Source: a virus
Reading direction: 5' to 3' (one strand)
DNA length: 64,000 bases
Virus record (IMG/VR): IMGVR_UViG_3300025849_000010
Span: 32,001 to 96,000 of that record
Below are positions 45,923 to 60,305 of the stretch, piece after piece (positions within the stretch are counted from its first letter, which is position 1; every line of letters starts with the position of its first letter). Below the pieces are notes generated by a model, which saw only the letters and a program-made list of their open reading frames with translations, was not told where the DNA came from and ran no database searches. The position numbers and the translations under genes were made by a program.

Positions 45923-47695
45923 ATGATTAAAATTAAAGACTTAACCGTAAAGAATTTTATGAGCGTGGGCAATCAAACCCAAGCAGTTGCTTTTAACAAA
46001 GAGCAACTTACGCTTGTACTAGGCGAGAATTTGGACCAAGGTGGTGACGATACAGGATCACGTAATGGTACAGGTAAAACTACTATCATTAATGCTCTGT
46101 CATATGCGCTGTACGGACAGGCACTTACAAACATTAAACGCAACAATTTAATTAACAAAACTAACTCAAAAGGCATGCTAGTTACACTGCACTTTGAAAA
46201 GAACGGTGTTGATTATCGTATTGAACGCGGACGTTCTCCTAACGTACTCAAGTTCTTCATCAACGGCGAAGAGCAAGCAATGATCGACGAGTCACAGGGC
46301 GACAGTCGCAAGACACAAGAAACAATTAACGAGTTGTTGGACATGTCGCACGATATGTTTAAACATATTGTTGCACTTAACACATACACTGAACCGTTCC
46401 TTAGTATGCGTACTAATGATCAAAGAGCTATTATCGAGCAGTTGCTTGGTATTACTATCCTTTCTGAAAAGGCAACTAATCTTAAAGATCAAATCCGTGT
46501 AACTAAAGATGCCATCACGAGCGAAACTCTTAAAATTGATGCGATACAAACTGCTAATAGTAAAATTGAATCAACTATTAATAGTTTAGGTCGTACACAA
46601 CGTGCTTGGCTGTCTAAAAAAGAACAAGACTGTGCAAAATTGTTGCAAGGTATTACAGAATTAGAGAAACTTGATATCGAAGTTGAACTTGAATCGCATG
46701 AAAAGTTGTCTAACTGGACGCAACATAACAACGCTATTATGGCTCTTAAAAAAGAATTAAGCACATTAGAGCCAGCACTATTACGTGCCGACAAGTCTGT
46801 TGAAAAAGCCAAAAAAGACATCGCAGATCTTGAAGATGCAACATGTTATACATGCGGACAAGAACTTCACGCAGATAAAAAAGCAGAGATTGCAGCTCGC
46901 AAAGACAAAGAACTTGTCGACGCTAAATCATATGCTGAAGAAATTACAGGAAAAGTAAAAGAAGTTGCGTTTGCACTTGAAGAGATTGGTGACATCAATG
47001 GCAAGCCTACAACGTTCTATGAAAGTGCCAAAGAAGCATATGACCATAGACAAAATGTTGACAGTTTGAAGCAAGCACTGTCAAACAAACAACAAGAAAC
47101 TGATCCGTATCAAACACAAATTGACGAGCTAAACAATAGTGCAATGCAAGCAATTGATTGGTCAGCTGTTAATGAACTGACAGAGTTTAAAGAGCATCAA
47201 GAATTTTTACTTAAACTTCTAACTAACAAAGATAGTTTTATTCGTAAAAAGATTATTGATCAAAACTTAGCATATCTTAACAACAGACTTACATATTATC
47301 TTGACAAGCTAGGACTGCCGCATCAAGTTCAATTCTTAAATGATTTGAACGTAGAAATTACACAGCTAGGACAGGACTTAGACTTTGATAACCTGTCAAG
47401 AGGTGAGCGCAACAGACTTATCTTAGGCCTGAGCTTTGCATTCCGTGACGTTTGGGAATCATTGTATCAAGGTGTTAACTTATTATTCATTGATGAACTT
47501 ATCGACTCGGGCATGGACACAGCCGGTGTTGAAAGTGCGTTGAGCGTACTTAAAAAGATGGGACGTGAACGAGATAAGAATGTATTCCTTATTTCACATA
47601 AAGACGAGCTTATCGGACGAGTTAATCATGTTATGAGAGTTGTAAAAGAAAACGGATTTACAAACTATGAAAACGATATTGATATTGTTGAATAA
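45923..47695 (+). CDS. Recombination ATPase, gp46/Rad50/SbcC-like
   Basis: Walker A NGTGKTT, coiled coil with CYTC zinc hook, LSRGE signature, LLFIDE Walker B, ISH. Confidence 0.93.
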   Translation: MIKIKDLTVKNFMSVGNQTQAVAFNKEQLTLVLGENLDQGGDDTGSRNGTGKTTIINALSYALYGQALTNIKRNNLINKTNSKGMLVTLHFEKNGVDYRIERGRSPNVLKFFINGEEQAMIDESQGDSRKTQETINELLDMSHDMFKHIVALNTYTEPFLSMRTNDQRAIIEQLLGITILSEKATNLKDQIRVTKDAITSETLKIDAIQTANSKIESTINSLGRTQRAWLSKKEQDCAKLLQGITELEKLDIEVELESHEKLSNWTQHNNAIMALKKELSTLEPALLRADKSVEKAKKDIADLEDATCYTCGQELHADKKAEIAARKDKELVDAKSYAEEITGKVKEVAFALEEIGDINGKPTTFYESAKEAYDHRQNVDSLKQALSNKQQETDPYQTQIDELNNSAMQAIDWSAVNELTEFKEHQEFLLKLLTNKDSFIRKKIIDQNLAYLNNRLTYYLDKLGLPHQVQFLNDLNVEITQLGQDLDFDNLSRGERNRLILGLSFAFRDVWESLYQGVNLLFIDELIDSGMDTAGVESALSVLKKMGRERDKNVFLISHKDELIGRVNHVMRVVKENGFTNYENDIDIVE

Positions 47696-47706: not shown

Positions 47707-47910
47707 ATGGACGACAACGACACACACGATAAGTTAACGCAAATGTATTTAGAATACTTCAAGGCAAATGAAAAATTCGAAGCTCGCAACTCCGTACGTA
47801 CTCATAGAGAAGTACGGAGATGCCTTCGAGACATGAGACAGCTTGCTAAAGAGCGTTCTGAAGAAATACATATTAAGCATAATACTACAAGAAAAACCAA
47901 GACCGACTAA
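47707..47910 (+). CDS. Small helical, charged hypothetical protein
   Basis: 67-aa ORF filling the gap after gp46; Arg/Lys/Glu-rich, possibly DNA-binding. Confidence 0.55.
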   Translation: MDDNDTHDKLTQMYLEYFKANEKFEARNSVRTHREVRRCLRDMRQLAKERSEEIHIKHNTTRKTKTD

Positions 47911-47938: not shown

Positions 47939-48373
47939 ATGCATTGGACTTATGAAGGAAAACAAATTGAAGAACTGCCAGAAGGCTGCGAAGCATTTGT
48001 TTATCTTATCACAAACAAGACTAATGGCATGATGTACGTAGGCAAAAAACTAGCAAAGTTTAAGGTAACTAAACCACCGCTCAAAGGCAAAAAGAATAAG
48101 AGACGTTCAACAAAAGAAAGTGATTGGAGAGATTACTGGGGTTCCAGTGATAGACTTAACGCAGACGTTGAACGGTTAGGCGCAGAAAATTTCACAAGAG
48201 AAATATTACATATTTGTCCGAGCAGAGGCATAGCAAGTTATTTAGAGGCCCGCGAACAGTTTGAACGCAGAGTACTTGAAACAGATCAATACTACAACGG
48301 TATTATCAATGTACGAGTCGGCGGTTCAACTATTCTCAAAGAACATCTCAAAAACAATCCACCACAGGCATAA
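47939..48373 (+). CDS. GIY-YIG-like nuclease-fold protein
   Basis: AFVYLITNKTNGMMYVGKK..YWGSS..FTREIL..LEAREQ..YYN. Start taken as ATG 47939 (MHWTYEG), since the longer ORF overlaps the previous gene. Confidence 0.7.
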   Translation: MHWTYEGKQIEELPEGCEAFVYLITNKTNGMMYVGKKLAKFKVTKPPLKGKKNKRRSTKESDWRDYWGSSDRLNADVERLGAENFTREILHICPSRGIASYLEAREQFERRVLETDQYYNGIINVRVGGSTILKEHLKNNPPQA

Positions 48374-48790
48374 TCAATACAGCACATAAGGTTAGCGGGC
48401 CAGTTTGTAATACCGCTGTGGAAAAGGTCCCCTGAGAAGGACACACGTAACATATTGATCGACTACCCAGAGGTAGGAAGCCATCAAACAAATTGGGCTC
48501 ACTGGTTGATATAGATTGATTGCTGTCAGTCGAAAAACTGCAAATTACACATAAAAACTCTTTAGCAATAGGAACGAAGCGAGAGGTAGTTGGAAACAAC
48601 GATGTCGACGTAGGTTGGGAAAGGTCAGAGCCCATTGTGTAGCAGTATAACAAACACCTACTTCCAATGTCTAGGCTGGATAAGACTCACATGAAGCTTT
48701 TCTTTTAGACGACGGGGCCGTAACAGGTTCCGTCTGACTGAAACGATCTACATGAAACTTAAACATTATTACATTCGTAATAATGCAATT
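48374..48790 (+). ncRNA. Candidate large structured non-coding RNA (unassigned)
   Basis: No credible ORF; many hairpins with G-U pairs and GNRA loops plus long-range complementarity (see findings). Confidence 0.5.
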
Positions 48791-48915
48791 ATATCATATA
48801 TTAAATCATTTAAATTAAACGAAGTGATGTAGTTTGAGCGTTAGCGATAACTAAAATGAGCTTTAGCTCATTTCTAACATAAATACATTTAAGTAATAGC
48901 TTATTAGGACATCTC

Positions 48916-49950
48916 ATGAAAGTATTTGACATTGTAAACGAAACAAGATATCGAGTTAGTGAATTCCCTGGATTTGTTTGGGATGACGCAGCTGAGATGT
49001 TAACTCGTCCTGATGGCACAACAGTAAAAGCTACTAGTGCTGATGATGCAAGAAGAGCCGCAAGAACCTGGAATGCCAGAACAGCTAGACTACAATCGCC
49101 AAATGCTAAGTGGAGAAATTTTAAGCGAAGTGCTAATAATCCAGCTCTCAAGTTGGAAAACATGGATAATGCTTTTGCAAAATGGTCAACACGTTTACAA
49201 CGTATACCTGGCATTGGTAAAATTAAATGGATATTCTTATTAAATGATCTGTTTGCTGATATGGCCGGGATTGCTACAGCCGTCATTGAAGAAGAAAATG
49301 AACGTGCAGAAGCAGCAGGCGAAGAATTTGACACAGTAGAAGTTACTAGTTTAATTTCAGCAGCTATATGGACACACCTTAAAGAAGTATTTCCTGCGAT
49401 AGCAAGATCAGCAGCAGTGTTTATTACAACTATATGGGCAAGTACAAAAATATTGACAAGAGTTATTAACTCAATTATGTGGGTAGTTAGAGGATTTGGT
49501 CTTGCAACTGGACCTGGCGCTCCGATAGTTTGGTTAGGAACTTTTGCTGCACAGATTGGCCTAAGTTGGTTTATGACAACTGATTACGGCAAACAAAAAA
49601 TGCGTGACGCATGGATTTGGACACTTGAAGCATTGCTTCCAGGAGTAATAGGTTTAGCAGCGTCTATAGCAGTTAAAGCAGGGTTCGAATCTGCTGAAGG
49701 ACTGTCAGATGCGGCTCGTGCAGCTAGCGAAACTGTAGCAGATACACTAAAAACTCAAATGGAATCACAAGCTGAAACTATACTAAACGGTATGGATGAA
49801 TTTGGTGGCGGAGTAAGTGAAGACGATGTTCAAGACATGCCGCAGGAAATTCAAGATAGACTTAATCAACAAGAACAACCAGATGCTGCACCAACTCCAG
49901 CAGCAGCAAATCAAAGTTTTAAAGACATTGTAGGCGCTGGTACTTGGTAA
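48916..49950 (+). CDS. Hypothetical late protein with hydrophobic helices and acidic C-terminus
   Basis: 344 aa; TAAATA at 48880-85 and AGGA SD; hydrophobic stretches around aa 160-250. Confidence 0.65.
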   Translation: MKVFDIVNETRYRVSEFPGFVWDDAAEMLTRPDGTTVKATSADDARRAARTWNARTARLQSPNAKWRNFKRSANNPALKLENMDNAFAKWSTRLQRIPGIGKIKWIFLLNDLFADMAGIATAVIEEENERAEAAGEEFDTVEVTSLISAAIWTHLKEVFPAIARSAAVFITTIWASTKILTRVINSIMWVVRGFGLATGPGAPIVWLGTFAAQIGLSWFMTTDYGKQKMRDAWIWTLEALLPGVIGLAASIAVKAGFESAEGLSDAARAASETVADTLKTQMESQAETILNGMDEFGGGVSEDDVQDMPQEIQDRLNQQEQPDAAPTPAAANQSFKDIVGAGTW

Positions 49951-49951
49951 T

Positions 49952-50188
49952 TTAAATTAACGGCATTCCGGCCTTATTGGTATTTTCCCAATTTTCTTTG
50001 ATAATTTTATTAAGGATAGCCTTGTCGGCTACATCGATATAATACATTAGGTCTTGATACTGGACACCGCCTCGCATATACCATACCAATCGGTACATTT
50101 CGTCTTTGAGGCTTTTTTCTGTTTCTTCGTACTGTTCAAGAACTGCTTCGATATCAGAGACTTCGAGATTACCTATTAGCTTCCGAAA
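49952..50188 (-). CDS. 78-codon ORF in the -1 frame of the gp26-like gene (gp51-like position; likely frameshift extension)
   Basis: FRKLIGNLEVSDIEAVLEQYEETEKSLKDEMYRLVWYMRGGVQYQDLMYYIDVADKAILNKIIKENWENTNKAGMPLI*; fills the gap exactly; absent from the ORF track. Confidence 0.7.
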   Translation of the reverse strand, partial: FRKLIGNLEVSDIEAVLEQYEETEKSLKDEMYRLVWYMRGGVQYQDLMYYIDVADKAILNKIIKENWENTNKAGMPLI

Positions 50189-51003
50189 AAACTTGAATCA
50201 TCCATTGTGAACAACTGCGTGTAACCTTTAGCGCACTCACCGCACTTGACCTCTAGCGGTTTTATTTGCTGATCTTCGTTATTTTTTTCAATTGTCTTTT
50301 TTAACAGTTCAAAATATTCTCTATCACTTGTTAAAATAAAATCTCTTATTTGTGCTGGATCGTATTCTGAACCATCAGGTGTGATAATTTCAACAACTTG
50401 TCCTGCAATACTTTCTTCAATTACTTGATTTAGTTTTTTATATGCAGTGTATTCAATTTCTCGCTGTTGTTCAACAGTTAGGTCTTTTTGGCTAGCAGTT
50501 TGTGCTATCAAACGCTGAGTTTCAAAAGATACTTTTTCTATAGCAGTGTATGCATCGTAAGTTAACGGATTAAGTTTAAAAGTTAGCTCGTGCATTTTAA
50601 CAGTTTCTAAATACTTGCGATCACTAAGACTTTCTAAGATGTGTCCTAAAATTACTTCGTGTTTGTTTCCCTCACCACAATGTGGACAAGAACTGTGTTG
50701 ATTATATTTTTCTCCGTAGGATGCTATGCGTATTGCTACTAACAAAAATTCGATGTCTATTATAGAAATATTGCCTGGCTCAACAATACTAGGAATACAT
50801 GACTTAATTAGATTCTTAGTTGCTAGTCCACTTAACAATGCTTCTGGATTTTTCATCATAAGTTCATCAGCACCCGACATTGAGTAAATCGGTACTTCTT
50901 TGAATGTACTATTACTAGTGCCTTCTTTTACAAATCTAAATTGTGATGGAATATCAACAAAGATTTTTGGCTGTCTTTTGTGCTTGGTTAAAACCGAACT
51001 CAT
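50176..51003 (-). CDS. Baseplate hub / tail assembly chaperone, T4 gp26-like
   Basis: MSGADELMMKNPEALL..IKSCIP..DIEFLLVAIRIASYGE, CPHC...CGEC, ends SSFFGS. Confidence 0.8.
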   Translation of the reverse strand: MSSVLTKHKRQPKIFVDIPSQFRFVKEGTSNSTFKEVPIYSMSGADELMMKNPEALLSGLATKNLIKSCIPSIVEPGNISIIDIEFLLVAIRIASYGEKYNQHSSCPHCGEGNKHEVILGHILESLSDRKYLETVKMHELTFKLNPLTYDAYTAIEKVSFETQRLIAQTASQKDLTVEQQREIEYTAYKKLNQVIEESIAGQVVEIITPDGSEYDPAQIRDFILTSDREYFELLKKTIEKNNEDQQIKPLEVKCGECAKGYTQLFTMDDSSFFGS

Positions 51004-59798: not shown

Positions 59799-59888
59799 TA
59801 AATACTTTTGTTATAGAGATATCCTCTATTGCGAGGAATTATGCGGAAACCCGCCGCGTAGACCTAGAACGTCAAAAAGGAGAAAACA
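59799..59888 (+). promoter_or_regulatory. Late promoter and structured 5' leader
   Basis: TAAATA at 59799-804, then several hairpins before the AAGGAG SD. Confidence 0.55.
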
Positions 59889-60305
59889 ATGGGACGTCCA
59901 CTTAATAAAAGATACTTCGGAGAACCAACTGCCGGAGGAAACGAAATCAAAGTACAATTTCACAATGGAACAGCTAGTGTAAACGGCTGGATCGTTAAAC
60001 AAAAAGGTTCAAAAAAATTCTTATGCTCAGACGGAACTGTCGAAGCAACATGTGTACTAGTTGACAAAGCATCAGGCGCAGTAGCAGCTGGTGAAATGAC
60101 TATTACAGTACTTGACGGTGCAACACCACGTCAGGTAACAAAGATTGCTGCACACAAAGTAACAATGGATAACGGTTTAACTATTAACTGGGACTTCACT
60201 GGAACTGGTGCAACTGTTGAAATGGAAGAAGCAGGCGATGATGCTGTTATCGACAATGTAGGCGTTGATGAAGACGACTTCGAAGGCGATGACCCAGCAC
60301 CATAA
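59889..60305 (+). CDS. Hypothetical virion/head-associated protein
   Basis: 138 aa with strong SD and its own late promoter; IVKQKGSKKF; acidic tail. Confidence 0.65.
   Translation: MGRPLNKRYFGEPTAGGNEIKVQFHNGTASVNGWIVKQKGSKKFLCSDGTVEATCVLVDKASGAVAAGEMTITVLDGATPRQVTKIAAHKVTMDNGLTINWDFTGTGATVEMEEAGDDAVIDNVGVDEDDFEGDDPAP

What the first reader, a model, noticed from the sequence alone, without database searches (positions are those of the whole stretch)
48374..48790. Candidate ~400-nt highly structured ncRNA directly downstream of a GIY-YIG-like gene
Seen: the largest non-coding gap in the window, more GC-rich than other spacers and dense with pairings: AGCGG/CCGCT (48394-98/48413-17), GTCC/GGAC (48427-42), CTACC-CAGA-GGTAG (48463-76), CAGT/ACTG (48527-40), GTTG-GAAA-CAAC (48589-600, GNRA loop), long-range TGGGCTC/GAGCCCA (48494-500/48628-34), GTAGGT/ACCTAC (48610-15/48656-61), GACGGGGCC/GGTTCCGTC with two G-U pairs (48711-34), CATTATTAC/GTAATAATG (48764-85). 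Two of these helices cross, implying a pseudoknot, and the repeat ACATGAA.CTT flanks the 48711 hairpin. G-U pairs and GNRA loops favour a + strand RNA. I could not assign it to tRNA, tmRNA, RNase P or an intron. Inference: an undescribed phage RNA, possibly partnering the adjacent nuclease-fold protein as a ribonucleoprotein, or serving as an R-loop primer at a replication origin.
Basis: partly seen in the sequence, partly recalled or inferred. Interest (0 to 1): 0.8.

Follow-up and report, generated by a model that had tools for sequence, protein, structure and literature searches.

The report
Twin-box pseudoknotted RNA of marine phages
The gene-free stretch behind a small DNA-cutting enzyme gene of this uncultured giant phage encodes a real, knotted RNA of about 480 bases that is in no catalogue. 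It carries one 7-letter word twice, the two copies always mutate together, and the RNA is probably an independent gene rather than the enzyme's guide.

Summary
In detail: window 48392-48873 (+) is a genuine structured RNA. On 84-85 non-redundant homologues from uncultured phage contigs, 64 of 97 proposed base pairs show compensatory changes (0/500 shuffles reach this; about 90% of cells paired against 31-43% when partners are slid). The real pseudoknots are H7 crossing H8, plus a 3-bp loop pseudoknot.

No Rfam family matches, and neither do GenBank phages.

The GIY-YIG link is loose. Catalytic-domain-only homologues occur in cultured phages with no RNA-sized gap behind them. At least 11 loci have the RNA without the nuclease. 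In two complete 31-kb tailed phages the order is reversed (RNA, then nuclease). Nuclease identity does not track RNA type.

The oddest feature is two 7-nt boxes (ACATGAA, 48689-95 and 48750-56) flanking a conserved hairpin. They are identical in 85/85 sequences through five words and at least 10 joint changes, and type B adds more than 10 words. No complementary partner exists anywhere in a complete 31-kb genome.

My best but unproven reading (about 0.3) is a ColE1 RNA II-like pre-primer, in which box-1 RNA re-anneals to the template DNA at box 2.

This scan has already found the same family on other genomes.

The parts
47939..48373 (+). GIY-YIG nuclease gene: 144 aa, SegE-type catalytic domain only, no DNA-binding domain. 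A neighbour of the RNA, not shown to be its partner.
   Evidence: PF19835 E 4e-33 covering 123/123 of the profile. phrog_447 and homing-endonuclease PHROGs. No match by sequence to a solved structure.
48392..48535 (+). 5' domain of the RNA. Helices: H1 48394-98/48413-17; H2 48418-20/48444-46; H3 48427-30/48439-42; H4 48452-60/48504-12, enclosing H5 48463-67/48472-76 and H6 48481-83/48494-96; Hg 48514-18/48527-31.
   Evidence: these helices are 77-100% paired, and most pairs show two-sided changes. A subgroup of homologues replaces this domain with a shorter one that is shared with type B.
48536..48661 (+). Doubly pseudoknotted core. H8 48537-41 and 48547-51 pairs with 48636-40 and 48642-46. 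H9 48558-66/48579-85 carries the invariant loop GGAACGA. H10 48587-602 is a variable hairpin. The 3-bp pseudoknot pairs 48607-09 with 48624-26. H7 48610-15/48656-61 crosses H8. Hd 48616-19/48631-34 has the invariant 11-nt loop AAAGGTCAGAG.
   Evidence: H8b 5/5 and H9 7/7 pairs have two-sided changes. The 3-bp pseudoknot covaries (GAC/GTC, GTG/CAC, GAT/ATC, GGT/ATT). Paired cells are 94-99%, except for the two inner H8a pairs (76.8%).
48669..48686 (+). Tentative hairpin H12 presenting the invariant GGCTG in its loop.
   Evidence: Judged by eye on alignment A2: TCG/CGA, TTG/CAA, GTCT/AGAC. The register shifts between lineages and the helix was not formally tested.
48689..48695 (+). Box 1 of the twin boxes (ACATGAA).
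   Evidence: Identical to box 2 in 85/85 sequences, with five words.
48705..48737 (+). Hairpin H13 between the boxes, followed by the near-invariant single strand CTGACTGAAACRATCT.
   Evidence: The upper 7 bp are 99.5% paired, with G-U/A-U and C-G/U-G alternation. The base of the stem is mis-registered in the model alignment.
48750..48756 (+). Box 2 of the twin boxes (ACATGAA).
   Evidence: No complementary word lies within 1.5 kb (type A variants) or 3 kb (type B loci), nor anywhere in the complete 31-kb genome G002.
48764..48785 (+). 3' hairpin H14.
   Evidence: 8 of its 9 pairs show two-sided changes, and 95% of cells in the main stem are paired.
48786..48833 (+). AT-rich variable spacer, a possible DNA-unwinding element.
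   Evidence: GC about 0.31. Poorly conserved apart from AAACGAAGTG.
48834..48873 (+). Conserved TTGAGCG-GNNA-GCGAAAAC mini-hairpin followed by a covarying terminator-like hairpin, 48854-61/48866-73.
   Evidence: The mini-hairpin C-G switches to U-A in 4 sequences. The terminal hairpin has two-sided changes in 8/8 pairs. The motif is also present in type B and in the 31-kb phage, where it abuts the GIY-YIG start codon.

Best explanation
Window 48392-48873 (+) is an independent gene for a roughly 480-nt, multi-helix, doubly pseudoknotted non-coding RNA of an uncatalogued family (the 'twin-box RNA'). The family is carried by uncultured marine and freshwater giant T4-like phages at the end of the gp55-gp47-gp46 operon, and also by unrelated 31-kb tailed phages.

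The adjacent GIY-YIG gene is a free-standing, homing-type nuclease gene. Such genes have settled beside this highly conserved RNA gene several times. It is not an obligate protein partner.

Proposed mechanism (inferred, not shown): the RNA acts in cis as a pre-primer or R-loop-forming origin transcript, like ColE1 RNA II or the T4 oriF/oriG transcripts. The folded 5' and core domains present box 1 (ACAUGAA) as a single strand. When the polymerase opens the DNA at box 2, about 60 nt downstream, box-1 RNA can pair with the template strand there. That is why the two boxes must be identical, yet are free to drift together. The resulting persistent hybrid next to the AT-rich spacer would be used to start DNA synthesis.

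Shown: the RNA is real, its structure covaries, it is independent of the nuclease, and the boxes co-change with no complementary partner in the phage.

Inferred: the RNA-DNA pairing and the origin function.
For: Reality of the RNA
- 64 of 97 tested pairs have two-sided changes. Paired cells are 90-91%, against 31-43% when partners are slid. In 0/500 shuffles were the observed paired fraction, the two-sided changes or the covariation score reached.
- Length modulo 3 is evenly spread (29/28/27).
- The strand is + because G-U pairs are frequent. Two lineages have a TTGACA-17-TATACT promoter inserted between the nuclease stop codon and the RNA.

Independence from the nuclease
- in cultured phages the nuclease gene is followed within about 30-150 nt by the next gene.
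- at least 11 loci have the RNA without the nuclease, still upstream of the divergent baseplate-hub gene.
- in three loci the nuclease is on the opposite strand.
- the order is reversed in complete 31-kb phages, and their nucleases are only 49-54% identical.
- nucleases 79-82% identical sit beside RNA cores that cannot be aligned (type A against type B).

The boxes need only match each other
- They are identical in 85/85 sequences, with 5 words and at least 10 joint changes. Type B has more than 10 words and roughly 20 changes.
- No complement lies at any consistent position within 1.5 kb (type A variants) or 3 kb (86 type B loci).
- In the complete genome G002 the word occurs only in the two boxes, and its reverse complement occurs nowhere.
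- The word is not enriched in the host contig.

Origin-like setting
- An AT-rich spacer follows the RNA.
- In the 31-kb phage no replication gene was recognised among the 30 ORFs scanned, and the RNA region is its only large non-coding stretch.

From established knowledge: persistent hybrid formation by ColE1 RNA II depends on an upstream G-run in the RNA pairing with a C-run of the template DNA near the origin (Masukata and Tomizawa 1990, recalled, not read here). In the sequence that appears as a direct repeat.
Against: - No experiment or transcript data are available.
- An origin transcript does not obviously need about 40% invariant positions and two pseudoknots. That degree of conservation is more typical of ribozymes or of RNAs that bind a conserved machine.
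- Giant T4-like phages have their own replication proteins, and nothing ties this locus to initiation.
- GC skew is uninformative, because it follows gene orientation.
- The simple scan found no sigma-70 promoter or canonical terminator in the window itself.
- The annotation of the 31-kb phage is thin, and small initiator proteins could be missed.
- A host-encoded partner for the boxes is not excluded.
Confidence: 0.3

Rival explanations
1. A trans-acting RNA: a scaffold, decoy or sponge for a host factor, or a self-assembling 'ornate' RNA like GOLLD or ROOL. Its two identical boxes would each bind one copy of the same outside partner, either a host RNA or a dimeric protein.
For: - The core is large, highly conserved and pseudoknotted.
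- The RNA occurs in unrelated phage backbones (jumbo T4-like and 31-kb tailed phages), which suggests a host-directed function.
- The boxes lie in regions with no covarying partner.
Against: - The word differs among close relatives: 5 words in type A and more than 10 in type B, with at least 30 joint changes. That is hard to reconcile with a conserved host partner.
- No complement exists in the complete phage genome.
Confidence: 0.3
2. A ribonucleoprotein with the GIY-YIG protein. The RNA would guide or activate the nuclease, which has only a catalytic domain, by analogy with HEARO/omega RNA and IscB.
For: - The nuclease lacks a DNA-binding domain.
- The two genes are adjacent in 126/129 type A loci and 92/108 type B loci, and also, in reversed order, in the 31-kb phages.
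Against: - The protein family sits in cultured phages with no RNA-sized gap behind it.
- The RNA occurs without the nuclease in at least 11 loci.
- The two do not co-diverge.
- There is no hypervariable terminal guide.
- The complement of the 7-nt word is absent from the whole G002 genome and lies at no consistent position near the cassette.
Confidence: 0.07
3. A mobile ribozyme element: a group I-like intron or other self-processing RNA carrying a homing endonuclease gene in different peripheral positions.
For: - A GIY-YIG gene sits either 5' or 3' of the same RNA core.
- A long-range pseudoknot encloses two hairpins, which recalls P3/P7 around P4-P6.
- The RNA is present in unrelated phages.
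Against: - Rfam Intron_gpI and all ribozyme families give no match, even at E up to 10.
- The strand order differs from group I: a hairpin lies between the '7' and '3-prime' strands, and there is no P8.
- The flanks are complete genes, not exons: gp46 is full length, and the downstream genes vary between loci.
Confidence: 0.08
4. The boxes serve polymerase template switching. The nascent 3' end made at one box would re-pair at the other, either skipping or reiterating the roughly 60-nt hairpin unit, in the manner of coronavirus TRS-driven discontinuous synthesis or telomerase-like realignment.
For: Boxes that must be identical and have no third partner are what such a mechanism needs.
Against: - No reverse transcriptase is found in G000, G002 or G003.
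- To my knowledge no such jump is known for bacterial or phage DNA-dependent RNA polymerases.
- The unit length is not conserved.
Confidence: 0.05
5. A missed protein-coding gene, for example the 101-codon minus-strand frame 48348-48653.
For: Minus-strand stop-free runs are fairly long, with a median of 79 codons.
Against: - Lengths are evenly spread over the three residues modulo 3.
- One hairpin varies by up to about 100 nt.
- Substitutions are compensatory in helices.
- The + strand is A-rich and T-poor (AT skew up to about 0.25), so the complementary strand has few A's for stop codons.
Confidence: 0.01

Closest known systems
ColE1 RNA II pre-primer and T4 oriF/oriG origin transcripts (R-loop replication primers)
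   Same: A structured transcript of several hundred nucleotides ends next to an AT-rich region. In ColE1 an upstream RNA segment pairs with the template DNA downstream, which in the sequence is a direct repeat. That is the only known logic I could find under which two boxes must be identical without any third partner.
   Different: There is no sequence or structural homology. The twin-box RNA is far more conserved and is pseudoknotted. No antisense regulator is known. Origin function is untested.
GOLLD (RF01998) and ROOL (RF03087) RNAs
   Same: These are large, ornate, covariation-supported non-coding RNAs, often carried by phages, whose function is unknown.
   Different: No Rfam match. The architecture differs. 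I know of no twin boxes described for them.
Free-standing GIY-YIG homing endonuclease genes of T4-like phages (Seg family, e.g. SegB in the T4 tRNA gene cluster)
   Same: A SegE-type GIY-YIG domain. The genes sit between conserved genes or beside conserved RNA genes. Several independent configurations occur beside the same RNA.
   Different: This protein is 144 aa and lacks the C-terminal DNA-binding domain of Seg proteins. Homing was not tested. The nuclease is nearly fixed beside type A RNAs.
HEARO/omega RNA with IscB (nuclease-associated guide RNA)
   Same: A nuclease gene lies immediately next to a conserved, structured RNA of several hundred nucleotides.
   Different: No Rfam match. The association breaks in at least 11 loci. 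The protein family occurs in cultured phages without the RNA. No variable guide end was found.
Group I introns with GIY-YIG endonuclease genes (e.g. T4 td with I-TevI)
   Same: A GIY-YIG gene is combined with a pseudoknotted RNA core, and the ORF position varies.
   Different: No match to the intron model. The helix order differs. There is no interrupted host gene.

Membership tests
Any Rfam 15 family (including Intron_gpI, RNase P, tmRNA, GOLLD, ROOL, HEARO, Polynucleobacter-1) | Match to the family's covariance model | tested here: not met
   With gathering thresholds on the whole window, only freshwater-2 at 59821-59891 matched. At E up to 10 on 48200-49000, only chance snoRNA-like hits appeared. 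Eight homologous loci, including type B and the 31-kb phage, gave nothing in the RNA.
Group I intron | The P3-P7 pseudoknot with strand order P3, P4-P6, P7, P3', P8, P7' | tested here: not met
   The observed order is H8 5' strand, two hairpins, H7 5' strand, a hairpin, H8 3' strand, H7 3' strand. No hairpin lies between the last two strands.
Group I intron | Interrupts a host gene whose exons are contiguous in intron-less alleles | tested here: not met
   The upstream genes are complete: gp46 is 590 aa and matches SbcC-like phrog_77 right to the profile's C-terminal end, and the GIY-YIG domain is matched in full. Downstream genes differ among loci.
Group I intron | Self-splicing with guanosine | not testable with these tools
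   This needs in vitro transcription.
Nuclease guide RNA (omega RNA / HEARO type) | Obligate co-occurrence of RNA and nuclease | tested here: not met
   At least 11 loci have the RNA with no GIY-YIG within 1.5 kb. In the cultured phages inspected the nuclease gene has no RNA-sized gap behind it.
Nuclease guide RNA (omega RNA / HEARO type) | A variable guide segment complementary to DNA flanking the element or to a target | tested here: not met
   The only hypervariable, specificity-like segment is the 7-nt twin word. Its complement lies at no consistent position within 3 kb and is absent from a complete genome.
R-loop pre-primer RNA (ColE1 RNA II-like; a functional class, not a homology family) | An upstream RNA segment able to pair with template DNA near the 3' end (a direct repeat in the sequence) | tested here: met
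   The twin boxes are identical in 85/85 sequences and co-change at least 10 times.
R-loop pre-primer RNA (ColE1 RNA II-like; a functional class, not a homology family) | A persistent RNA-DNA hybrid, with DNA synthesis starting at the RNA 3' end | not testable with these tools
   This needs DRIP or RNase H mapping and replication-start mapping.
Free-standing GIY-YIG homing endonuclease (Seg-like) | GIY-YIG catalytic domain of the SegE type | tested here: met
   PF19835 E 4e-33. The 31-kb phage copies score E 1e-32 and 2e-31.
Free-standing GIY-YIG homing endonuclease (Seg-like) | A C-terminal DNA-binding domain, and presence/absence polymorphism at the insertion site | tested here: inconclusive
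   There is no extra domain: 144 aa, of which 123 are the catalytic domain. Polymorphism exists in type B (16 of 108 loci lack a same-strand upstream copy) but is almost absent in type A.

The most novel reading that the evidence does not exclude
The twin-box RNA is a portable, self-contained replication-start or R-loop cassette. Its 7-nt word is a freely re-programmable RNA-to-DNA address: box-1 RNA reads the template strand of box 2. The cassette is moved between unrelated phages, escorted by GIY-YIG homing nucleases. Equally unexcluded and equally novel is the reading that the twin word is a programmable address read by an outside partner, making this a new kind of sequence-directed phage RNA.
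Probability: 0.3. Interest if true: 0.85.

Novelty: categorically new. Interest (0 to 1): 0.72.

Why it matters
A 480-nt RNA with two pseudoknots and about 40% invariant core positions is the kind of molecule that usually turns out to be a ribozyme, a machine component or a key regulator. This one is shared by hundreds of uncultured phage contigs and by two unrelated phage architectures, yet it is absent from Rfam and from cultured phages.

I know of no described precedent for its pair of boxes, which must be identical while their sequence drifts freely. The pair gives a clean handle for experiments: single mutations against compensatory double mutations.

If the R-loop reading is right, the family would reveal how abundant ocean phages start replication. 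That would include small phages without recognisable replication genes, and it would show that origins can travel as RNA-encoding cassettes. If that reading is wrong, the family remains a strong candidate for a new functional RNA class.

Tried and rejected
- **Rfam.** Gathering and permissive thresholds on the window and on eight homologous loci gave no family. tRNA/tmRNA scan: none.
- **GenBank phages.** blastn with type A and type B sequences found no match.
TGGGCTC/GAGCCCA and CAGT/ACTG were rejected by pair counts.
- **Brute-force covariation.** An all-against-all canonical-pair covariation screen was too noisy to use. MAFFT-only pair counts on divergent sequences under-counted helices because of mis-registration, so I re-aligned with a covariance model.
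- **Model R1.** It does not detect type B, so types A and B are linked only by shared architecture, shared position and a shared 5' domain variant.
- **Partner for the boxes.** I searched for the complement within 1.5 kb for the four type A variant loci and within 3 kb for 86 type B loci, and in whole genomes. None was found. Pairing of the boxes with each other through the CATG palindrome is rejected, because the G>A and G>C variants would break it.
- **Reverse-transcriptase template idea.** No RVT_1 match in G000, G002 or G003.
- **DenA (T4 EndoII) orthology of the nuclease.** No match by sequence to any solved structure.
- **Cellular origin.** The 27-nt motif occurs in only three MAG contigs, which look like mis-binned phage contigs.
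- **Paper search.** Fremin et al. 2023 (PMC10690425) list 10,006 viral candidate RNAs, but no supplementary files are held. I could not check whether this family is among them.
- **L113.** I first counted it as RNA without nuclease, but the RNA lies at the contig end, so it is uninformative.

Full report
**Context.** The window is part of a 159.6-kb IMG/VR virus record that CheckV estimates to be 44% complete. Its genes mark a giant T4-like phage:
- late sigma factor gp55 (44022), gp47 (44912) and gp46 (45923-47695);
- a T4-type portal (53088) and a baseplate hub (50176-51003, minus strand);
- a 4637-aa ORF.

The portal is about 50% identical to those of jumbo phages such as Atu_ph07, Phosso and CBB. 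The gene just before the finding (47939-48373) encodes a 144-aa protein that is essentially only a SegE-type GIY-YIG catalytic domain (PF19835, E 4e-33).

Searching viral contigs with the nuclease protein gave 80 loci. In about 50 of them the DNA right after the nuclease gene is conserved at 66-91% identity, as well as or better than the neighbouring gp46 gene. A 27-nt invariant motif (48727-48753) recovered more than 120 further contigs.

On 84 sequences non-redundant at 95% (alignment A1), and on 85 sequences aligned to a covariance model built from my hand-derived structure (R1 and A3), the pair counts are clear:
- In the core, 24 of 44 pairs change on both sides. 90.8% of cells are paired, against 32-42% when the partners are slid. 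In 0/500 shuffles was any of the five measures reached.
- In the 5' domain and the 3' hairpins, 40 of 53 pairs change on both sides. 90.2% of cells are paired, against 31-43% when slid.

Frequent G-U pairs place the RNA on the + strand. Lengths are spread evenly over the three residues modulo 3, and one hairpin varies by up to about 100 nt, so this is not a hidden gene.

TGGGCTC/GAGCCCA and CAGT/ACTG do not. The true long-range features are three:
- H8 (48537-51 with 48636-46);
- H7 (48610-15 with 48656-61), which crosses H8;
- a 3-bp pseudoknot between 48607-09 and the loop of hairpin 48616-34, which covaries as GAC/GTC, GTG/CAC, GAT/ATC and GGT/ATT.

The unit continues beyond the finding. 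It runs through an AT-rich spacer to a conserved TTGAGCG-GNNA-GCGAAAAC mini-hairpin and a covarying terminal hairpin (48854-73). A late-promoter-like CATAAATA then precedes the next gene.

**Is it known?** No Rfam 15 family matches the window. Eight homologous loci also gave nothing, even at permissive thresholds. There are no tRNA or tmRNA genes. GenBank phages show no blastn similarity.

A published catalogue of 10,006 viral candidate RNAs may or may not contain this family. Its tables are not held, so I could not check.

Earlier agents of this scan met the same family on other genomes and called it a twin-box RNA. My tests agree with them independently.

**Relation to the nuclease.** In type A loci the nuclease gene lies directly upstream in 126 of 129 informative cases. 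Five observations argue against an obligate pair.
1. The same roughly 140-aa protein family is common in cultured phages (780 GenBank records), including cyanophages and rhizobiophages. It is often mis-named 'NAD synthetase'. In the records I inspected it sits in other contexts, with the next gene only about 30-150 nt away and no match to this RNA.
2. A second, very divergent form of the RNA (type B; motif CTCTGAGAAAAAGCAACC, more than 120 contigs) occupies the same position. Model R1 does not detect it. Of 108 informative type B loci, 92 have the nuclease upstream, 3 have it on the opposite strand and 1 has it about 1.7 kb upstream. At least 11 have no nuclease within 1.5 kb, while the RNA still sits before the divergent baseplate-hub gene.
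3. Nucleases beside type B RNAs are 79-82% identical to the window's, as close as many beside type A. RNA type therefore does not track the protein.
4. Two complete 31-kb tailed phages carry a type A RNA followed, not preceded, by a GIY-YIG gene only 49-54% identical. One of these genomes has 127-bp terminal repeats. They encode a tape measure, terminase, portal and capsid.
5. No guide-like variable end exists.

The simplest account is that free-standing, homing-type GIY-YIG genes have repeatedly settled next to a very conserved RNA gene, as SegB does among T4 tRNA genes. The near-fixation in type A, and the RNA's presence in unrelated phages, leave room for the nuclease helping the cassette to spread.

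**The twin boxes.** Two 7-nt boxes, ACATGAA at 48689-95 and 48750-56, flank hairpin H13 and an almost invariant single strand.
- In all 85 aligned type A sequences the two boxes are identical. The word takes five forms: ACATGAA, ACATGAT, ACATAAA, ACATCAA and ACATGAG. There are at least 10 joint changes on a tree built without the box columns.
- Type B shows the same arrangement with more than ten further words, for example GAATAAT, AGATAAT, TCGTGAT and TCGAGAT, and roughly 20 joint changes.
- The boxes cannot pair with each other, since the G>A and G>C variants would destroy the CATG palindrome.
- No complementary word was found within 1.5 kb for the type A variant loci or at any consistent position within 3 kb in 86 type B loci.
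- The word is not enriched in the 159-kb contig.
- In the complete 31-kb genome G002 the word occurs only in the two boxes, and its reverse complement occurs nowhere.
- A conserved host partner is hard to square with so many words among close relatives.

The boxes therefore seem to need only to match each other. The one nucleic acid always complementary to box 1 is the template DNA strand under box 2.

**Mechanism.** This is the logic reported for ColE1 RNA II, as I recall from Masukata and Tomizawa 1990 (not read here). There, an upstream RNA segment pairs with template DNA near the origin and makes the hybrid persistent, so that it can prime replication. T4 also starts origin replication from R-loops.

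The surroundings fit loosely:
- The RNA lies at the end of an early/middle operon.
- Two lineages have a sigma-70-type promoter inserted just before the RNA.
- An AT-rich stretch follows the RNA.
- In the 31-kb phages the RNA region is the only large non-coding stretch, and none of 30 scanned ORFs resembles a replication protein.

I therefore favour a cis-acting pre-primer/R-loop role, at about 0.3. Against it, such heavy conservation and two pseudoknots are more than a primer seems to need, and nothing experimental ties the locus to replication.

The rivals are:
- a trans-acting RNA reading a host partner (about 0.3);
- a ribozyme or intron-like mobile element (about 0.08; the model match, helix order and exon context all fail);
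- an RNP with the nuclease (about 0.07);
- polymerase template switching (about 0.05; no reverse transcriptase);
- a missed gene (about 0.01).

**Verdict.** This is a real, uncatalogued, large pseudoknotted phage RNA family with an unprecedented identical-covariation feature. The nuclease is a frequent neighbour, not a demonstrated partner. The function is unknown, but it can be tested directly by single against compensatory box mutations.

Noticed in passing
window 59821-59891 (+): This is the only Rfam match above threshold in the window: freshwater-2 RNA (RF02980, 52.1 bits), just upstream of the 138-aa gene at 59889.
   Followed up: no
window 48878-48885: CATAAATA, close to the T4 late-promoter consensus TATAAATA, lies about 30 nt before the start of the 344-aa gene (48916). 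Similar ATAAATA words follow the terminal hairpin in many homologues.
   Followed up: partly
L009:3424-3520 and L117:3243-3340: About 95 nt are inserted between the nuclease stop codon and the RNA. The insert contains a near-consensus sigma-70 promoter (TTGACA, 17 nt, TATACT), which suggests the RNA can be transcribed on its own by host polymerase.
   Followed up: partly
L084, L091, L098, L107, L113, L145 and about 20 others: Many viral contigs start or end within about 100 nt of the invariant 27-nt motif. Assemblies appear to break at this highly conserved RNA, as they do at rRNA genes.
   Followed up: no
G002/G003 (L333-L336), complete 31-kb phages: These tailed phages have a tape measure, terminase, portal and capsid. 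No polymerase, helicase, primase or initiator was recognised among the 30 ORFs scanned. The twin-box RNA region is their only large non-coding stretch.
   Followed up: partly
L210-L212 (MAG contigs JBDNIA010000124.1, PBPT01000016.1, PBPT01000082.1): The RNA occurs on contigs binned as Crocinitomicaceae and Candidatus Neomarinimicrobiota, one of them 335 kb long. These are probably giant-phage contigs mis-binned into MAGs.
   Followed up: no
GenBank phage records (e.g. NC_028945.1 gp310, MW015081.1): Homologues of this GIY-YIG catalytic-domain protein are widely annotated as 'NAD synthetase' (phrog_447). This looks like a propagated mis-annotation.
   Followed up: no
window 48571-48581 and 48817-48825: AACGAAGCG in the invariant H9 loop recurs as AACGAAGTG in the AT-rich spacer of many type A loci. 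It may be a second pair of related words. The 31-kb phage does not share it.
   Followed up: partly
window 47707-47910 (+): A 67-aa ORF between gp46 and the nuclease gene has no family match. This slot varies greatly among loci, from about 50 nt to 1.9 kb.
   Followed up: no
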